Sequence record: MN122072
DNA length: 52,288 nt
DNA from: Escherichia phage vB_EcoM_Bp10
Direction: 5' to 3' (one strand)
The notes below the pieces were generated by a model. That model did no database searches, was not told where the DNA came from, and worked only from the letters and a program-made list of their open reading frames with translations. A program made the position numbers and the translations under genes. Of this stretch, positions 3,730-44,002 are shown piece after piece (position 1 is the first letter of the stretch; each line of letters opens with the position of its first letter).

Positions 3730-4251
3730 ATGTCTTGTATGACTCAAGTTGTTGCTGTAAAGCGAGTGCATCCTAATGCGAAATTACCTGTGTACGCTAC
3801 TGCTGGCGCTGCTGCTGCTGACGTTTGCACTATCTCCGATAGCACTGTTGTTATCAATCCCGGCTGCTCTGCTGTTTTCGATACTGGCCTCCAATTCGAG
3901 ATTCCAGTTGGATACGAACTCAAAGTACATAGCCGTTCTGGTCACGGCTTTAAGTCTGGTATTCGCCTGGCAAACTGTACAGGAATTCTGGACTCCGATT
4001 ATCGTGGTAATCTTATGGTTAAGTTGCACAACGACTCGGACACAGCCTTTGTGGTTCAACCAGGTGAACGTATTTGTCAGGTGCAAGTTAGTAAAGCTAC
4101 TCAACACCATTTCGTTGAAGTTGACCGCTTGAATGCAACTGGTCGTGGTGAAGGTGGCTTTGGCTCAACTGGTCGTGTGGAACTTGGTCAGCATGAAAGA
4201 CCACATATTCCAGAAGGCTTGACAGTCCACAATCACAGCATTGCCAAGTAA
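3730..4251 (+). CDS. dut: dUTP diphosphatase (dUTPase)
   Basis: All five dUTPase motifs are visible: AGAAAADV, RSG, GILDSDYRGNL, QPGERICQ, RGEGGFGSTG. Confidence 0.85.
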   Translation: MSCMTQVVAVKRVHPNAKLPVYATAGAAAADVCTISDSTVVINPGCSAVFDTGLQFEIPVGYELKVHSRSGHGFKSGIRLANCTGILDSDYRGNLMVKLHNDSDTAFVVQPGERICQVQVSKATQHHFVEVDRLNATGRGEGGFGSTGRVELGQHERPHIPEGLTVHNHSIAK

Positions 4252-4290
4252 TATTCGACATTCTCAGTAACCAATTGGAACCTATCTGAA

Positions 4291-4620
4291 ATGAAACTGT
4301 CCTCACCTGTCGTAGTAAATAACCGCAAAGTTAAATTTGCATACCTCAAGTCTAATGTCACCTCCACTGGTGGCGGGACTTATCTCACCCGTGCACTTGC
4401 AGTTCGCAACGAAACAGGTGCGGATGTTATCGTTTTCATGCTTCCTCATGGTGAAAACACAATCAAGAACGTCGAACGTATCAAGCGTGGGCGCGAAGAT
4501 TTAATGTCGGCTGTTAAGCCGCTGATACTGCCATTCAAGATTGTGGTGGTTGTTGGTTCTACCCAAGCATATCTGGAAGATTTCTATAAAGATATGGCCT
4601 GGAGCGATATTAAATATTAA
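4291..4620 (+). CDS. hypothetical protein
   Basis: Clean ORF between dUTPase and a terminator-like hairpin; no recognisable motif. Confidence 0.45.
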   Translation: MKLSSPVVVNNRKVKFAYLKSNVTSTGGGTYLTRALAVRNETGADVIVFMLPHGENTIKNVERIKRGREDLMSAVKPLILPFKIVVVVGSTQAYLEDFYKDMAWSDIKY

Positions 4621-4637
4621 GCGACACGCGTAATTAG

Positions 4638-4667
4638 GGAGGCTATCTGGCCTCCTATCTTATTCGG
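4638..4667 (+). terminator. terminator-like hairpin (GGAGGC/GCCTCC) with T-rich tail
   Basis: 6-bp perfect stem, 6-nt loop, followed by TATCTTATT; sits between two genes. Confidence 0.4.
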
Positions 4668-4675
4668 AGTCGCTT

Positions 4676-4861
4676 ATGCGCACAATACAATGTCCTAACT
4701 GCCACTATGAAATTGCAGAAGATGATTTCATAACGCAGCAATGTCCTATCTGTGATTCATATATGCCACTAAACCGCCTGTATTTAAAGGCCGATTCTGG
4801 TTTAGGCAGCATCATTCGCATCAATCCCGTGCAAACTCAGCCATTAGTGGATTGTGATTAA
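4676..4861 (+). CDS. small zinc-ribbon protein
   Basis: CPNCHY...CPICDS, two CxxC pairs in 61 aa; immediately upstream of the large terminase gene. Confidence 0.45.
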   Translation: MRTIQCPNCHYEIAEDDFITQQCPICDSYMPLNRLYLKADSGLGSIIRINPVQTQPLVDCD

Positions 4862-4880
4862 AAACAAAGAGAACGAATCA

Positions 4881-6899
4881 ATGTCAAAGACTGATGACCT
4901 CGGACCGGAGTTTAATGATACAGTAGCCTCGTATCTTGCCAAGCACTACGGTGACGTATTAAAAGTCTCAAGAGAAAGATTCTGTATTCTATCTTTGCCA
5001 TTGCTCCGTCGATATATTTCAGAAAATACTGCAATAGTTGACAGCTATGAAGAACAAATTCAAGCAGAGTTAGAAGGCCAGGGTCTTGAAAACGATGCTG
5101 TACTGCGTTCCGTTTTCAGAGCACAACTTGAGCGTCTTCGCTCTGGCGACAAGAAAGACTCAACTGCCTATGCAGATGAGTTGAAGAAAGGTATTCAAGC
5201 AGGTGTTACTGACCGTGTTGCAGGTTCCACTTTGGAGGAACCAAACTCGGAACATGATAACACCGATGAACTTGTAGACAAGATTCTGCATGACCCACAT
5301 AACGTGGACCCAACTGTAATCCCTGCCAAGGTTGCAGAACGTGTTCGCAAAATCTTGATGAAAAGTTTCGAAGCCTTTGGTAAATGGCAGTTCCATATCC
5401 AGATGGGATTTCCATTTCAAGCACAAGACTTTCACGATGTAATATTCAGTGTTGGTCAGAAGGTTGTTGATGGCGAGATTGACCGCTTAATAGTGACCAT
5501 TCCTCCACGACACTCTAAGACACAGCTTATGAGTATTGCATTACCCTTGTATTCATTTTGCCACAATGAATCGAGCCATAACATTATCACCTCGTATGCA
5601 GAAGACGTTGTTCTTGAATCGAGTGGTTACATTCGTGCTGTAATGATGGACCCACTGTTCCAACGCATATTTCCGAAGGTGAGAATCGACCCCAACAAAC
5701 GTTCACTTGAGCGCTGGGGTACAACCAAAGCTGGAGTTATGCACGCAGTACCTACTGGTGGTAAGCTAACTGGTAAAGGTGCTGGTCTTCTTGTTGCAAA
5801 ATACTCCGGCTGTTTCGTGGTGGATGACGTTATCAAACCGAAAGATGCCTACTCTGACACAGTTCGAGCAGAAATCAACGACCGATTTGATAACACCTTT
5901 ATGTCCCGTCTTGCCAACGATGGTTGCATAACTGATTCGTACGGAAACCAAATTAAGTGCGCCCGTACACCAATGGTTATCATCATGCAGCGAGTTCATG
6001 ACCAGGATTTAGTTGGTTACATACTCCGTGGTGGCTCTTCTGACAAATACCATTATCTCAATATCCCAGCGATTATTGAGAAAGGCGTTGGAAGTGCCGA
6101 ATGGTATGATAAGTTAATCAAGAAGCAGAACTACACTCATGCCATTCCCATTCTGTACAATTTGAACAGGAAGGAAGAGAAGTCTGCATTATGGCCTTCA
6201 CGTAAGAGCTTAGAATCTCTGGAGGCAATGAAAGAGTCTAACCCATACACATACAATTCACAGTATGCTGGCGACCCATCTGCACAAGGCCACGGCCTTA
6301 TCAAAGAAGATTGGTGGCAAGAGTATGAGCCAGACGTTTTCGACAGAAGTCGCATAGTCAGAAGTTTTATCACAGCGGATACGGCATCAACTGCCAAATC
6401 CTATTCTGATTATTCGGTCCTTAAGCATTGGGGCGTGACTAAAGAGCGTGATGTTTATTGTTTAGATATTATGCTCGGTAAGTTTGAAACTCCAGAACTC
6501 AAGACTGCTATCATCGACTTCTGGAACAAATGCAACAAGTTGGACTTGAAGTGTGTGGGTTGTATTCCTCGTGCATTGTACATGGAAGACAAGTCTGCCG
6601 GACAATTCTTGAACCAACAATTTATTAGAGATGGGAGTGTCCGAGTTTTACCGCTGCCTCGTGATGGCATCAATGGTAATGACAAGGTAACTCGATTCCT
6701 TAACGCAATCCCATATTTCTCGCAAAAGAGAATATTCTTCCCTGCTGGTCATGAACACATTGACCACGTTAGACGTGAAATACTTGGATTCACTTCTTTG
6801 GGTAGTGGTACTGGACACGACGATTGTGTCGATAACGTTTCAGATATGGTTGCAATCGAATTCTCAGGCCCAAGTGCCAACTACTCCGCATGGATGTAA
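4881..6899 (+). CDS. terminase large subunit with N-terminal extension
   Basis: Walker A-like TIPPRHSKTQL, Walker B-like CFVVDD, C-terminal nuclease-like ITADTASTAK and GHDDCVD. Start taken at ATG 4881 (GAGA upstream); the ORF track begins at GTG 4854. Confidence 0.8.
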   Translation: MSKTDDLGPEFNDTVASYLAKHYGDVLKVSRERFCILSLPLLRRYISENTAIVDSYEEQIQAELEGQGLENDAVLRSVFRAQLERLRSGDKKDSTAYADELKKGIQAGVTDRVAGSTLEEPNSEHDNTDELVDKILHDPHNVDPTVIPAKVAERVRKILMKSFEAFGKWQFHIQMGFPFQAQDFHDVIFSVGQKVVDGEIDRLIVTIPPRHSKTQLMSIALPLYSFCHNESSHNIITSYAEDVVLESSGYIRAVMMDPLFQRIFPKVRIDPNKRSLERWGTTKAGVMHAVPTGGKLTGKGAGLLVAKYSGCFVVDDVIKPKDAYSDTVRAEINDRFDNTFMSRLANDGCITDSYGNQIKCARTPMVIIMQRVHDQDLVGYILRGGSSDKYHYLNIPAIIEKGVGSAEWYDKLIKKQNYTHAIPILYNLNRKEEKSALWPSRKSLESLEAMKESNPYTYNSQYAGDPSAQGHGLIKEDWWQEYEPDVFDRSRIVRSFITADTASTAKSYSDYSVLKHWGVTKERDVYCLDIMLGKFETPELKTAIIDFWNKCNKLDLKCVGCIPRALYMEDKSAGQFLNQQFIRDGSVRVLPLPRDGINGNDKVTRFLNAIPYFSQKRIFFPAGHEHIDHVRREILGFTSLGSGTGHDDCVDNVSDMVAIEFSGPSANYSAWM

Positions 6900-7114
6900 A
6901 TATGGCGGTTATCACTCGTTTAGATGCCCGCTCACGCAAGAACAACTCCTTCCAGATTCAAGATTTGGAAGGAAACATTTTATGTGTGATTGAGGCAGTT
7001 TCTACCACAGAGAGCGACTGTGTTAAGTTAAAGCACGAGTCAAATCTGCGACTCCACACCTCCGACAACATTCAAATTGTTAAGGGTAATGGAACTATTC
7101 TAAGGAAGAAATAA
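6890..7114 (+). CDS. hypothetical small protein
   Basis: 74-codon ORF overlapping the terminase stop and the portal start (TAATG); no motif. Confidence 0.3.
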   Translation: MDVNMAVITRLDARSRKNNSFQIQDLEGNILCVIEAVSTTESDCVKLKHESNLRLHTSDNIQIVKGNGTILRKK

Positions 7115-8430
7115 TGACTTCCAAGAAGAAAAATAATCTCTCTGTTAAAGTTGCAGATGGGTTAGAAAACCTTGTAACGGGGTTGGGCGGTCAGGCAGAT
7201 AAGTCCACTTTTAACCAGTGGACTTTCTCAAACAAGAACGCGAACTATCGCGAACTTATGAACCGCTTCCGTGAGGATTGGGTGGCACAGAAAGTGTGTA
7301 CCGTTATTCCTCAAGATATGACGCGTAAGTGGCGGCATATTGATACCGAAGAGGGACGCAAAGCGGATAAGAAACTTCGTATTCGTAAGCTGTTCCGTGA
7401 GGCGTATCAATGGGCCAGATTGTATGGGACTTCATTTGTTCTGCTCGACCTAAAAGGTACGGGCAAACTTGATACACCATTGCGACTGGATAACTTGAAG
7501 ACTGGGTGTATTAAATCCATGAGAGTTATTGACCGCTCACGCTTATTCGCCGCAGGGACTATGGTTCTGGACCCTTTGAGTCCTCACTATGGTTTGCCAG
7601 AGTACTACACTTTGGCTGGGTATCCCGGCTATATCCATTACACTCGTTTCCTTCGGTTCGAGGGTACTGAACTGCCACTGTTCGAATTCCAACGTAACAT
7701 GTGGTATTCCGATTCGGTACTTATTCCGCTGTTGAAAACGATTGACCAATTCTACACAACTGCCGCTGCTGCTGCCAGCCTTGCTCAAGAAGCCACAATT
7801 GATGTGGTAACTGTCGAAGGCTTACAATCTTTGCTCACATCACCGGAAGGTGAGGCTGCTGTGATGAAGCGCTTCAAACTCATGAAGCTGGCAAAGAGTA
7901 TTTATAACGTCTTAATTCTCGACAATACTGAGAAGTATGACACCAAGTCAATTGCACTGTCTGGTGTGAAAGATTTGATTTGGGAATACTTGAAGATAGT
8001 TGCTGCCGCAGTTGGTATTCCGGCTACACGTTTCCTTTCTGCATCTCCAGACGGTATGAATGCTACGGGCGAATCTGACCTCGTAAACTATATCGACTTG
8101 TTGACTGGCTTGCAGACTTCTGTGTTTGACCCTCGTTTAGATGTGGTAGACAAGATTGTCCAGGCGCACTTTGGCATTGAAGAATATAACTACGAATGGT
8201 TAGACATCTTCCCTGAATCCAATGTTGAGAAAGCGAAGCGAGCTAAAGATTTGGCATTTGCTGTTGACCTGCTGGTTAACAACGGCACCATTACCACGGA
8301 AGTTGCAAACGAAGTCATGTTCCATTCGGGCGTGTTCGGAACTTGTGACCTTGGTAAGCCAAATCCTAATCCTCCTAACATCCAAAAGGGTAACGCAAGT
8401 GAAGCAAAACCAAAACCTGGTTCAGCTTAA
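7114..8430 (+). CDS. portal protein (candidate)
   Basis: 438-aa ORF directly downstream of the terminase and upstream of scaffold-like and capsid genes; assigned by position and size, not by a verified motif. Confidence 0.55.
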   Translation: MTSKKKNNLSVKVADGLENLVTGLGGQADKSTFNQWTFSNKNANYRELMNRFREDWVAQKVCTVIPQDMTRKWRHIDTEEGRKADKKLRIRKLFREAYQWARLYGTSFVLLDLKGTGKLDTPLRLDNLKTGCIKSMRVIDRSRLFAAGTMVLDPLSPHYGLPEYYTLAGYPGYIHYTRFLRFEGTELPLFEFQRNMWYSDSVLIPLLKTIDQFYTTAAAAASLAQEATIDVVTVEGLQSLLTSPEGEAAVMKRFKLMKLAKSIYNVLILDNTEKYDTKSIALSGVKDLIWEYLKIVAAAVGIPATRFLSASPDGMNATGESDLVNYIDLLTGLQTSVFDPRLDVVDKIVQAHFGIEEYNYEWLDIFPESNVEKAKRAKDLAFAVDLLVNNGTITTEVANEVMFHSGVFGTCDLGKPNPNPPNIQKGNASEAKPKPGSA

Positions 8431-42577: not shown

Positions 42578-42864
42578 ACTTACAAGACAAATCTAAAGAA
42601 GAGTTGATTGAGATTATCCAGAAAGAGCACGAACTCGCTGGTATCACAATTAACTTTGAACTCCAGGCAATGCAAGCTGTTGCTTTGGGCCATGGTCTAA
42701 TGGCTACACTCATTCATGCCAAGAATGTGTTAGGCGTTGACAACGAAAAATACCAAATTCTGGAGAAAGCTGCGCAAGAGCGGATTTCGCAGTGCTTGGT
42801 GACATTAGTTGATTTGGGAATCGACGCAGAAACTGCGAACAAACGTATCCTACAAGGCCACTAA
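42574..42864 (+). CDS. hypothetical protein
   Basis: Overlapping stop-start with the upstream ORF. Confidence 0.4.
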   Translation: MNLQDKSKEELIEIIQKEHELAGITINFELQAMQAVALGHGLMATLIHAKNVLGVDNEKYQILEKAAQERISQCLVTLVDLGIDAETANKRILQGH

Positions 42865-42865
42865 A

Positions 42866-43540
42866 ATGTCTTATCATGATGATGACAAAGAGATTGCACT
42901 ATCAACGTGTAAGCAATGGCTCAATGATAATGATGCCGTCTATCTTGCCAAGGAAGATGTTATCATTATGTGGGTCCATTTTAATCCAGAATCGAAGCGC
43001 GGTGAGTGGCAACGCTACAAGATGAAAGAGGCTTGTCGCATAATTAAAGCCACACGCGCTGGCTTCTCTGCTATGAAGTATATTAAGCCAGAGATGCTGA
43101 TGCTTGCTGCACAGGAAGAAGAACGTGCATATAAGCAAGCTGTTAAATCTCGTTCAACTGTTCCTCCAGAGTTCTTTAATTTGGAGCGCGCTGGACACTT
43201 CAACAATTTAGAAATGTTGACACTATGCCTGTTGCAAGAATTAGTTGGAAGAGGACAAAACATTGAAGCTGTTTGTCTTGGAGAACTCATGAAAGAGTTG
43301 TTCTCGGCAAAGGGCTTTGCTGTGCCAAATCGAACTTTACGCTGGAAATTGTTGCGAGCAGTCGCGCAAGAAGCTGGTGTAGTTGTTCGTGACAGAACAA
43401 ACCGACTCACTGTAACTGGAGTTGGGCGTTTTGTAGCAATCCAGATTGAGGGTTATGACGAATCAATCATCACTGAACTCACTGTCGCTGAGACAAAGGA
43501 TTTAGTAAATAAAACACTGGAACGATTCAATAGATATTGA
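42866..43540 (+). CDS. hypothetical protein
   Basis: Start at ATG 42866 immediately after the upstream stop; ORF track starts at 42809. Confidence 0.45.
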   Translation: MSYHDDDKEIALSTCKQWLNDNDAVYLAKEDVIIMWVHFNPESKRGEWQRYKMKEACRIIKATRAGFSAMKYIKPEMLMLAAQEEERAYKQAVKSRSTVPPEFFNLERAGHFNNLEMLTLCLLQELVGRGQNIEAVCLGELMKELFSAKGFAVPNRTLRWKLLRAVAQEAGVVVRDRTNRLTVTGVGRFVAIQIEGYDESIITELTVAETKDLVNKTLERFNRY

Positions 43541-43563
43541 GTCGTTTGACGAATCAGAGCAGT

Positions 43564-43588
43564 TCTGAAACATTAGTTGGATGTGGAA
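43564..43588 (+). promoter_or_regulatory. copy of conserved motif (perfect core), candidate phage promoter
   Basis: tctgaaACATTAGTTGGATGTGgaa, 75 bp upstream of a codon-optimised gene. Confidence 0.45.
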
Positions 43589-43663
43589 AGAGAAAGGCTC
43601 TTTAATTTTATCTAAGTCACGTCACCGTGGCGTGCAAAACTATTCAATATAAGGTATATACAA

Positions 43664-44002
43664 ATGGCTAAGATTGTAACCGTAACTCAGTACGAAGCTA
43701 ACGATGGTTCCCTGTTCCTGACCGAAGCAGAGTGTAATGCACATGACTTCAAACTGGAAAACGGTGCTAAAATTGAGAAAGCTGCCGAAGCGTACCTGAA
43801 CACCGTTGGCGCTATCGACCGTTCTCGCTCCATGCAGAAGAACACCATCGAGCAGTTCCTGGCATTCTACCTGCCGTGGGTTGAAGCTGGTGAGCCGGAA
43901 GTTGAGCGTACTAAGTTCGATACTCCGAAAGAAGCTAAAGTTGCTGACGCAAGTGTTGCCGAAGCTGCCGAAGCTGCTGTAGAAGAAGCTCCGGTATTCT
44001 GA
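43664..44002 (+). CDS. acidic, apparently highly expressed 112-aa protein
   Basis: Codon usage like structural genes; about 21 D/E against 11 K/R; Ala/Glu-rich C-terminus; directly behind a perfect motif copy. Confidence 0.5.
   Translation: MAKIVTVTQYEANDGSLFLTEAECNAHDFKLENGAKIEKAAEAYLNTVGAIDRSRSMQKNTIEQFLAFYLPWVEAGEPEVERTKFDTPKEAKVADASVAEAAEAAVEEAPVF

What the first reader, a model, noticed from the sequence alone, without database searches (positions are those of the whole stretch)
4676..6899. Large terminase with a long N-terminal extension and no recognisable small terminase gene
The Walker A-like motif lies more than 190 residues from the likely start. The only upstream candidates are a 61-aa zinc ribbon and a 109-aa ORF, neither resembling a small subunit, so the recognition function may be fused to the large subunit or supplied by an atypical protein.
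Basis: inference. Interest (0 to 1): 0.45.

Follow-up and report, generated by a model that had tools for sequence, protein, structure and literature searches.

The report
Large terminase with extra N-terminal domain
This coliphage's DNA-packaging enzyme carries an extra, family-specific 107-residue helical domain on a flexible tether, and no conventional small-terminase gene can be found, so the extra domain may do the small subunit's job; this is plausible but unproven.

Summary
The window is a Carltongylesvirus (Chaseviridae; 100% identical to phage vB_EcoP_Bp7 across this region). The large terminase (TerL) most likely starts at ATG 4881 and ends at 6899 (672 aa). The Walker A motif PPRHSKT lies at residues 208-214.

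AlphaFold2 splits the leading region into three parts:
- a confident six-helix domain (residues 9-107)
- a disordered linker (about residues 108-127)
- a normal TerL ATPase and nuclease

The N-domain is in every family member found (48-100% identity, 663-681 aa). An exhaustive HMMER scan of 1.84 billion proteins found it nowhere outside TerL N-termini. It has no Pfam or PDB sequence match and no TerS-like fold match, only weak Myb/SANT/Fis-type three-helix similarity.

The nearest TerLs without it have Walker A near residue 63 and an adjacent conventional TerS. These are T1-like phages and uncultured gut phages. No TerS was detected in 37 window ORFs.

The 109-aa ORF is not a candidate: it has a patchy distribution and a terminator after it. 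The zinc-ribbon ORF is absent from about 30% of relatives. A 60-70-aa ORF downstream of TerL is conserved throughout the family and is the main rival.

Fusion of the recognition function is the best-supported reading (about 0.42), not a demonstrated one. Interest is moderate.

The parts
4637..4656 (+). Terminator-like hairpin (GGGAGGC-TATCT-GGCCTCC followed by a T-rich tail) between the 109-aa ORF (4291-4620) and the zinc-ribbon ORF. It marks the end of the nucleotide-metabolism operon and the start of the packaging/structural operon.
   Evidence: scan. The same site is annotated as a rho-independent terminator in phage SA91KD. Sequence verified.
4676..4861 (+). 61-aa acidic zinc-ribbon ORF (CPNC...CPIC; GJ1 gp46; PHROG 21735, unknown function), the first gene of the TerL operon. 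Accessory, not universal.
   Evidence: Searches give only weak zinc-ribbon Pfam hits. A CxxC..CxxC ORF lies directly upstream of TerL in about 31 of 44 family loci and is absent in about 13; BUCT696 likewise has no ORF upstream of TerL.
4881..6899 (+). Large terminase gene, 672 aa plus stop. The alternative GTG start at 4854 would add 9 residues.
4881..5201 (+). Family-specific N-terminal domain, residues 1-107. It has six helices: 9-21, 26-30, 39-48, 50-66, 73-88 and 95-107. It contains the signature YGD(L/V)LKVSRxR-x5-LPxLRxY; invariant residues are Y23, G24, R31, L39, P40, R43, Y56, E63, G66 and Q82.
5202..5261 (+). Disordered acidic linker, residues 108-127. It tethers the N-domain to the ATPase.
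   Evidence: pLDDT is 29-55. Mean pairwise identity is 25% and length varies from 16 to 21 residues.
5262..6305 (+). TerL ATPase domain, about residues 128-475. Walker A PPRHSKT is at nt 5502-5522 and Walker B CFVVDD at nt 5811-5828.
   Evidence: T1-like and outgroup TerLs align from about residue 155-178.
6306..6896 (+). RNase H-like nuclease domain, about residues 476-672. Invariant acidic residues are D500 (FITADTAST), E569/D570 (YMEDKS) and D647/D648/D651 (GHDDCVDN).
   Evidence: Pfam Terminase_6C is above its cut-off. Sequence verified.
6902..7114 (+). 70-aa basic ORF (GJ1 gp49; PHROG 12735) between TerL and portal. It is conserved throughout the family and is a candidate cofactor, mini-TerS or head-completion protein.
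   Evidence: Present directly after TerL in 42 of 44 loci. There are 125 clusters, all 59-90 aa (nearly all 59-75), all unnamed, and the named ones come from Chaseviridae-type phages. It is absent from outgroup loci.
7114..8430 (+). Portal protein (Phage_portal_3), the docking partner of TerL.
   Evidence: Pfam E 4.4e-75 and PHROG 146.

Best explanation
The gene is the large terminase of a Chaseviridae phage that packages genomes with site-specific direct terminal repeats of about 2.3-3.2 kb. Its catalytic body is an ordinary TerL, with an ASCE ATPase and an RNase H-like nuclease.

On the front of that body, via a roughly 20-residue disordered tether, sits a 107-residue six-helix domain found only in this TerL family.

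The most likely role of this domain is to carry out in cis what a separate small terminase does in other phages. It would engage the packaging-initiation region, through the conserved basic three-helix segment at residues 22-49. It might also multimerise or regulate TerL through the three long helices at 50-107. Terminase in this family would then be essentially a single polypeptide, perhaps helped by the conserved 70-aa protein encoded just downstream.

Shown: the domain architecture, its restriction to this family, its conservation, and the absence of a detectable TerS. Inferred: DNA recognition or regulation by the domain.
For: 1. The domain is discrete, confidently folded and tethered.
2. 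It is in every family member from 48% to 100% identity. The helical part at 50-107 has no indels.
3. Exhaustive HMMER finds it only at TerL N-termini and never clearly stand-alone (one possible exception, P0129).
4. There is a complementary pattern. The nearest TerLs with the same PPRHSKT Walker A but no N-domain have an adjacent TerS. These are 472-477-aa uncultured phages with Pfam Terminase_2 TerS (E 1.3e-23), and T1-like phages such as KOX1, whose TerS is annotated pfam16677.
5. No TerS was detected anywhere in the window.
6. In Aeromonas phage BUCT696, TerL follows the ribonucleotide reductase beta gene with a 4-bp overlap and no upstream small ORF.
7. The domain evolves faster than the catalytic domains (45% against 67% and 58% pairwise identity), as specificity subunits do.
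9. Relatives have defined terminal repeats, so sequence-specific recognition must exist. PYps23T has 2,339 bp shown experimentally (PMC8762354), and Mangalitsa has 3,234 bp predicted by PhageTerm.
Against: - The domain as a whole is acidic.
- Known TerS proteins work as 8-12-mer rings, and nothing here shows oligomerisation.
- E217 proves that a TerS can be remote and unannotatable.
- The gp49-like ORF appears together with the N-domain and is absent from the outgroups, so it could be the real partner.
- A long pre-Walker-A region is not in itself unusual. From my own knowledge, not tested here, T4 gp17 has Walker A near residue 161 and HSV pUL15 near residue 258.
Confidence: 0.42

Rival explanations
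1. A separate but atypical small subunit exists: the 60-70-aa basic protein encoded between TerL and portal (6902-7114). The TerL N-domain is its docking platform rather than the DNA reader.
For: - It lies directly downstream of TerL in 42 of 44 family loci, including the most distant ones and BUCT696.
- It is found only on Chaseviridae-type contigs and is absent from outgroup loci. It was therefore gained together with the N-domain.
- It is basic: pI 9.18 is reported for the ST32 orthologue (PMC6266442).
- T7 gp18 is also very small (my own knowledge).
Against: - There is no family or fold assignment.
- At 60 residues it is smaller than any characterised TerS and appears to lack the helical HTH/oligomerisation layout (my reading of the sequence).
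- A position between TerL and portal is equally typical of a head-completion protein such as lambda gpW (my own knowledge).
Confidence: 0.27
2. A conventional-function TerS is encoded far from TerL and is too divergent to recognise, as in Pseudomonas phage E217. The N-domain then has another role, for example portal or procapsid docking or nuclease regulation.
For: - The head and neck genes of this family match E217/Pa193 families: Pa193_gp24, E217_gp27 and E217_gp31_N.
- The E217 TerS lies about 58 kb from TerL (PMC9611059) and is still 'hypothetical' in RefSeq.
- Two core proteins of unknown function (243 aa at 42809-43540 and 112 aa at 43664-44002) are conserved as far as Aeromonas phage BUCT696.
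Against: - The window has no homologue of the E217 TerS.
- The two conserved unknowns sit immediately upstream of the primase/helicase gene in both phages, which points to replication.
- Pfam, PHROG and PDB give nothing for them.
- This reading does not explain why the N-domain appears exactly where the adjacent TerS is missing.
Confidence: 0.13
3. The 61-aa zinc-ribbon protein (4676-4861) is the recognition subunit. It would be loosely analogous to the zinc-finger partner pUL28 of herpesvirus terminase.
For: - It is the first gene of the TerL operon, after a terminator.
- A CxxC..CxxC ORF occupies the same position in about 31 of 44 loci, including Pseudomonas-associated relatives.
Against: - It is absent in about 13 of 44 loci, and BUCT696 and L005 have no ORF upstream of TerL at all. 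In those, TerL directly follows another gene or a tRNA.
- It is acidic (pI 4.4 for the ST32 orthologue; PMC6266442).
- In GJ1 a homing HNH gene separates it from TerL.
- There are only sub-threshold zinc-ribbon hits.
Confidence: 0.05
4. Recognition is transcription-coupled. The N-domain recruits TerL to the phage's T7-like RNA polymerase paused near the concatemer junction, so no DNA-reading TerS is needed.
For: [quoted passage not shown]
- In distant relatives its gene lies immediately upstream of TerL.
- In Carltongylesvirus the whole RNA polymerase gene lies inside the terminal repeat.
- In T7, polymerase pausing at the concatemer junction is linked to DNA maturation (my own knowledge, not tested here).
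Against: This is purely circumstantial. T7 itself still needs its TerS gp18, and there is no interaction evidence of any kind.
Confidence: 0.06

Closest known systems
TerL of T1-like phages (Drexlerviridae, e.g. Klebsiella phage KOX1) with adjacent P22-gp3-type TerS
   Same: These are the closest cultured TerL relatives outside Chaseviridae: 26-32% identity over residues about 155-662, with the same ATPase-plus-nuclease layout.
   Different: They have no N-domain or linker. TerL is about 534 aa, and a 174-aa TerS (annotated pfam16677) lies immediately upstream. T1-type packaging is headful (PMC8762354), whereas this family has defined direct terminal repeats.
Uncultured phage TerLs (IMG/VR loci L048-L085) with Terminase_2 TerS
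   Same: They have the identical Walker A heptapeptide IPPRHSKT and 25-30% identity across the ATPase.
   Different: Walker A is at residue 63-66 rather than 208. TerL is 472-477 aa. A 191-204-aa Pfam Terminase_2 TerS lies directly upstream. There is no gp49-like ORF.
Pseudomonas phage E217 terminase (TerL gp5, TerS gp78, PDB 7UXE)
   Same: It is a myovirus whose head and neck protein families match those of this family. Its TerS is not recognisable by routine annotation.
   Different: E217 TerL is 460 aa with no N-domain. A separate decameric 189-aa TerS exists 58 kb away (PMC9611059). The window has no homologue of it.
Lambda terminase gpNu1-gpA
   Same: Functional analogy only: a small HTH DNA-binding module held at the N-terminal end of TerL (my own knowledge).
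   Different: In lambda the module is a separate polypeptide, and lambda makes cos ends. No sequence or fold similarity was detected here.
T7 gp18/gp19
   Same: It also has direct-terminal-repeat genome ends and a T7-like RNA polymerase. Foldseek matches a T7 gp19 model.
   Different: T7 has a separate 89-aa TerS and 160-bp repeats (my own knowledge). Here the repeats are 2.3-3.2 kb and no gp18 homologue was found by PHROG scans.
phi29 gp16 and herpesvirus pUL15/pUL28/pUL33
   Same: Both are precedents for packaging motors without a phage-type TerS. phi29 is one (my own knowledge). pUL15 is a TerL with a long pre-ATPase region, and it is among the top Foldseek hits.
   Different: phi29 uses pRNA and a terminal protein. 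Herpesviruses use two further subunits. Neither component type is evident here.

Membership tests
Large terminase (TerL) | N-terminal ASCE ATPase with Walker A and Walker B motifs | tested here: met
   PPRHSKT at residues 208-214 (K213 and T214 invariant) and CFVVDD at 311-316 (D315 and D316 invariant).
Large terminase (TerL) | C-terminal RNase H-like nuclease with conserved acidic residues | tested here: met
   Pfam Terminase_6C scores 25.8 bits against a 22.6 cut-off. D500, E569, D647, D648 and D651 are invariant and D570 nearly so. Foldseek matches the G20c, P22, HCMV and HSV nuclease domains.
Large terminase (TerL) | Overall fold and family-level homology; gene next to portal | tested here: met
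   PHROG 38 E 1.3e-96. T4 gp17 Foldseek E 2.5e-9. The portal gene begins 215 nt after the TerL stop.
Large terminase (TerL) | ATP-driven DNA translocation and end cleavage | not testable with these tools
   Needs biochemistry.
Small terminase (TerS), applied to the TerL N-domain (residues 1-107) | Sequence or profile membership in a TerS family | tested here: not met
   No TerS family matched, and no family matched more than one of the 17 members at E<=10. There was no PDB sequence hit. hhalign against Terminase_2 TerS gave probability 0.3%. Only TerL matched in BFVD.
Small terminase (TerS), applied to the TerL N-domain (residues 1-107) | N-terminal helix-turn-helix DNA-binding fold | tested here: inconclusive
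Small terminase (TerS), applied to the TerL N-domain (residues 1-107) | Ring-shaped 8-12-mer oligomer; binding to pac/cos/terminal-repeat boundary DNA; stimulation of TerL | not testable with these tools
   No multimer prediction or biochemistry was available.
Small terminase (TerS), applied to ORFs 4291-4620, 4676-4861 and 6902-7114 | Membership in a TerS family | tested here: not met
   The only hits are to PHROGs of unknown function (18523, 21735, 12735) and sub-threshold zinc-ribbon Pfam families. All source names are 'hypothetical' or clearly spurious.
Small terminase (TerS), applied to ORFs 4291-4620, 4676-4861 and 6902-7114 | Conserved together with TerL across the phage family | tested here: inconclusive
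   The 109-aa ORF is in 21 of 44 loci (not met). The zinc ribbon is in about 31 of 44 (not met). The 70-aa ORF is in 42 of 44 (met).
HNH-assisted terminase (HK97-type HNH next to terminase) | HNH endonuclease conserved adjacent to the terminase genes | tested here: not met
   An HNH_3+AP2 gene sits between gp46 and TerL in GJ1 and a few relatives. It is absent in the window and in most relatives, so it is a mobile homing endonuclease.

The most novel reading that the evidence does not exclude
Chaseviridae use a single-polypeptide terminase. A lineage-specific, tethered N-terminal domain of TerL replaces the ring-forming small subunit and reads the boundaries of the 2-3-kb direct terminal repeats. 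That would make this a tailed-phage packaging system with sequence-specific ends and no separate TerS.
Probability: 0.35. Interest if true: 0.65.

Novelty: new variant of a known kind. Interest (0 to 1): 0.38.

Why it matters
TerS is described as essential for genome recognition in tailed phages and herpesviruses (PMC9611059). How its ring reads DNA specifically is still unsettled.

A phage family that makes precise terminal repeats with the recognition module attached to TerL in cis would be a simpler system. It would be experimentally tractable for studying packaging initiation. It would also explain why TerS is 'missing' from the Chaseviridae genome annotations checked here.

Practically, the YGDLLKVSR-type N-domain and the 60-aa downstream ORF are clean sequence markers for this family in metagenomes.

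If a hidden TerS exists instead, the result is ordinary: one more case of a divergent small subunit.

Tried and rejected
1. An apparent by-eye resemblance between residues 10-60 and the N-terminus of Terminase_2/SF6-type TerS was rejected. hhalign against 17 outgroup TerS sequences gave probability 0.3%.
2. Sequence searches with the N-domain found nothing. This covered Pfam at E<=10 on 17 members and a profile search of all PDB sequences.
4. A stand-alone homologue of the N-domain (Rosetta-stone test) was sought by exhaustive HMMER over 1.84 billion representatives. It gave 9 clusters, eight of them TerL N-terminal pieces. P0129 (198 aa) diverges after about residue 150 and was not resolved.
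5. A search for an E217-type distal TerS in the window by phmmer and tblastn found nothing below E 0.7.
6. PHROG scans of 37 window ORFs and Pfam scans of the unknown core ORFs found no TerS family.
7. The 109-aa ORF as TerS was rejected on distribution and on the intervening terminator.
8. The GTG 4854 start was judged less likely than ATG 4881.
9. The tblastn extension of Webervirus hits back to residue 107, overlapping the TerS annotation, was checked. TerS and TerL there are in the same frame and 9 nt apart, so the extension is probably run-through and not homology.
10. The primary papers on E217 terminase and on phiEcoM-GJ1 could not be read because they are not held. Statements about them come from PMC9611059 and PMC8762354.
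11. Structure prediction for the 109-, 61- and 70-aa ORFs was not possible.
Full report
**Identity of the window**

Megablast of 4200-7200 gives 100% identity to Escherichia phage vB_EcoP_Bp7 and 97-98% to phiEcoM-GJ1, ST32 and others. Bp7 is MN117721 (Chaseviridae, Cleopatravirinae, Carltongylesvirus). These are virulent myoviruses with a T7-like RNA polymerase (PMC8472413).

The local gene order is as follows:
- dNMP kinase
- dUTPase (3730-4251)
- a 109-aa ORF (4291-4620, GJ1 gp45)
- a 61-aa zinc-ribbon ORF (4676-4861, gp46)
- TerL (stop at 6899)
- a 70-aa ORF (6902-7114, gp49)
- portal (7114-8430)
- head and tail genes

**Checking the observation**

The finding's start coordinate (4676) belongs to the zinc-ribbon ORF, not to TerL. 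TerL can start at GTG 4854, as annotated for Bp7 (681 aa), or at ATG 4881 (672 aa).

The ATG is preferred for three reasons. It is the start used in GJ1, ST32, SA91KD and EcoM1. It has an AAGAGA element 7 nt upstream. In GJ1 an inserted HNH gene ends exactly at it.

Numbered from 4881, Walker A PPRHSKT is at 208-214 and Walker B CFVVDD at 311-316. The protein is a real TerL:
- PHROG 38, E 1.3e-96
- Pfam Terminase_6C above its gathering score
- invariant acidic nuclease residues D500, E569 and D647/648/651
- Foldseek best PDB matches T4 gp17, T7 gp19 and HSV-1 pUL15

**What the extra residues are**

AlphaFold2 was run on a 33-sequence family alignment (mean pLDDT 80.7) and on the first 125 residues alone (pLDDT 85, pTM 0.77). 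Both give the same picture:
- six helices between residues 9 and 107, at pLDDT about 90-97
- a disordered stretch at about 108-127 (pLDDT 29-55)
- then the ATPase

So the 'extension' is a discrete domain on a flexible tether.

All homologues recovered from 100% down to 48% identity are 663-681 aa and carry it. The signature is YGD(L/V)LKVSRxR-x5-LPxLRxY, with Y23, G24, R31, L39, P40, R43, Y56, E63, G66 and Q82 invariant.

The helical part at 50-107 has no length variation. The linker varies from 16 to 21 residues and is only 25% identical on average. The domain as a whole evolves faster (45% mean pairwise identity) than the ATPase (67%) or the nuclease (58%).

**Distribution**

An exhaustive HMMER scan of 1.84 billion representative proteins with residues 1-150 found only nine clusters. 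Eight are N-terminal pieces of TerL-like proteins, and one (P0129, 198 aa) diverges after about residue 150 and was not resolved. In the viral structure library BFVD the only significant match is TerL of Aeromonas phage pAh6-C, another Chaseviridae member.

The hits that superpose tightly are three-helix DNA-binding folds:
- TRF1 and WER Myb domains
- MTA1 and MiDAC SANT domains

This is a hint of an HTH-like subdomain, not proof. The domain is net acidic, and only residues 22-49, the most conserved part, are net basic (mean +3.3).

**Comparative evidence**

The nearest TerLs outside the family share the exact IPPRHSKT motif. In 30 uncultured-phage loci it sits at residue 63-66 of a 472-477-aa protein. 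In 29 of those loci a 191-204-aa ORF lies directly upstream; in the thirtieth that ORF is called at 157 aa from an internal start. The one such ORF scanned against Pfam (L048) belongs to Terminase_2 at E 1.3e-23.

Among cultured phages the next relatives are T1-like Drexlerviridae (26-32% identity). They align only from about residue 155 and have an annotated TerS next to TerL, for example KOX1 (pfam16677).

Relative to its nearest kin, this family has therefore gained about 145-150 N-terminal residues and lost the adjacent TerS.

**Is there a TerS anywhere?**

Several searches all came back negative:
- None of 37 window ORFs hits a PHROG small-terminase family.
- The relative EcoM1 has none annotated.
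- HMMs of the outgroup TerS and of the structurally solved E217 TerS find nothing in any frame. The E217 TerS is gp78, confirmed as PDB 7UXE.

This matters because the head and neck genes of this family belong to E217/Pa193 families. In E217 the TerS gene lies about 58 kb from TerL (PMC9611059) and is still labelled hypothetical. Absence of detection is therefore not absence.

A tblastn comparison with the distant Aeromonas phage BUCT696 shows only two conserved proteins of unknown function outside the structural module. They are 243 aa and 112 aa, at 42809-44002. Both lie immediately upstream of primase/helicase in both phages and have no family or structure match.

**The neighbouring small ORFs**

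*The 109-aa ORF.* It occurs in only 21 of 44 family loci. A terminator-like hairpin at 4637-4656 separates it from the TerL operon, and that hairpin is independently annotated in SA91KD. It is not a TerS candidate.

*The zinc-ribbon ORF.* It, or another CxxC..CxxC ORF, sits directly upstream of TerL in about 31 of 44 loci. It is missing in about 13 of them. In L005 a tRNA-Thr fills the gap, and in BUCT696 (not among the 44) TerL overlaps the preceding ribonucleotide reductase gene by 4 bp. In GJ1 an HNH_3+AP2 homing endonuclease separates it from TerL. It is accessory.

It is present in 42 of 44 loci and forms a family of 125 clusters. All are 59-90 aa, nearly all 59-75, and all are unnamed. 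The named ones come from Aeromonas, Vibrio and Shewanella phages. It is absent from the outgroup. It was gained together with the N-domain, so it is the strongest rival candidate for an atypical partner. Its position would equally suit a lambda gpW-like head-completion protein.

**Packaging type**

PYps23T has a TerL 97% identical to that of GJ1 and an experimentally shown 2,339-bp direct terminal repeat. Phages Y2 and PM1 have repeats of about 2.6 kb (PMC8762354). Mangalitsa has a 3,234-bp repeat predicted by PhageTerm.

Mapping these records onto the window puts the left genome end near 30.8-31.1 kb and the right repeat boundary near 33.4-34.0 kb. The repeat therefore contains the whole RNA polymerase gene. 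Defined ends imply a sequence-specific recognition step, so some component must provide it.

**Interpretation**

The best-supported reading (about 0.42) is that the tethered N-domain supplies TerS-like function in cis. Under this reading the basic, conserved three-helix segment contacts DNA. The long helices give regulation or multimerisation.

This rests on architecture, phyletic complementarity and weak fold hints. It is inference, not demonstration.

The rivals, in order of weight:
1. The 70-aa protein is the partner and the N-domain is its dock (about 0.27).
2. A remote unrecognisable TerS exists, as in E217 (about 0.13).
3. The N-domain couples TerL to the phage RNA polymerase (about 0.06).
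4. The zinc ribbon is the recognition subunit (about 0.05).

**Verdict**

TerL itself is already annotated in public records, and a missing TerS is common in phage annotation. However, neither the discrete family-specific N-domain nor its complementarity with TerS loss was mentioned in any paper the searches returned. This is a new variant of a known kind, of moderate interest.

Noticed in passing
L002 6610-7101 (phiEcoM-GJ1 gp47); the equivalent site in the window is 4862-4880: GJ1 and a few relatives (L007, L018, Pel53) carry a 163-aa HNH_3+AP2 homing endonuclease inserted exactly between the zinc-ribbon ORF and TerL. The window lacks it. It is a mobile element, not an HK97-style terminase-associated HNH.
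   Followed up: partly
L043, L044, L045 (e.g. L044 4900-5771): In three metagenomic relatives TerL is split between ...HAVPTGGKMT and GKGAG... (just before Walker B). The insert is about 0.9 kb and carries a free-standing 217-aa ORF with no Pfam hit. It is probably a group I intron or other mobile insertion. Protein fragments P0004, P0006 and P0128 break at similar points.
   Followed up: partly
window about 30,780-34,000: Mapping the Mangalitsa repeat (3,234 bp, PhageTerm) and the PYps23T repeat (2,339 bp, experimental) onto the window places the physical genome end near 30.8-31.1 kb. The whole T7-like RNA polymerase gene then falls inside the direct terminal repeat, so virion DNA would carry the gene twice.
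   Followed up: partly
window 31,160-34,300 compared with 4200-7200: The window is 100% identical to the Bp7 record around TerL but only 95.4% identical across the RNA polymerase and early region. The window is therefore not simply the deposited Bp7 sequence. It is either another isolate or a mosaic.
   Followed up: no
L004 3680-6001; L005 3848-6001: In distant family members the RNA polymerase gene lies immediately upstream of TerL, with a tRNA-Thr between them in L005. In the window it is about 26 kb away. The family has undergone a large rearrangement of the early module relative to the packaging module.
   Followed up: no
window 42809-43540 and 43664-44002: Two ORFs of unknown function (243 aa, PHROG 13087; 112 aa, PHROG 17419) are conserved as far as Aeromonas phage BUCT696. 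In both phages they sit directly upstream of primase/helicase. They have no Pfam or PDB match and are possibly replication-initiation proteins.
   Followed up: partly
protein P0129 (198 aa): One metagenomic protein has the N-domain and linker but then diverges from TerL after about residue 150 and ends. It could be a frameshifted or interrupted TerL, or a rare stand-alone copy of the domain. Its contig was not examined.
   Followed up: no
one search hit H25, PP952070.1: A record named 'Staphylococcus phage Pel53' (host Staphylococcus hyicus) is 91% identical at the DNA level to these coliphages. The host label looks doubtful. In that record the zinc-ribbon ORF is annotated 'DNA-directed RNA polymerase subunit'.
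   Followed up: no
L004 (contig JBNDIW010000010.1, 240 kb, Pseudomonas laurylsulfatiphila assembly); P0068 on a 1.2-Mb contig: Complete Chaseviridae-like packaging and head modules occur on long contigs of bacterial genome assemblies, although the family is described as strictly lytic. Possible explanations are co-assembled phage DNA, pseudolysogeny or integrated relatives.
   Followed up: no
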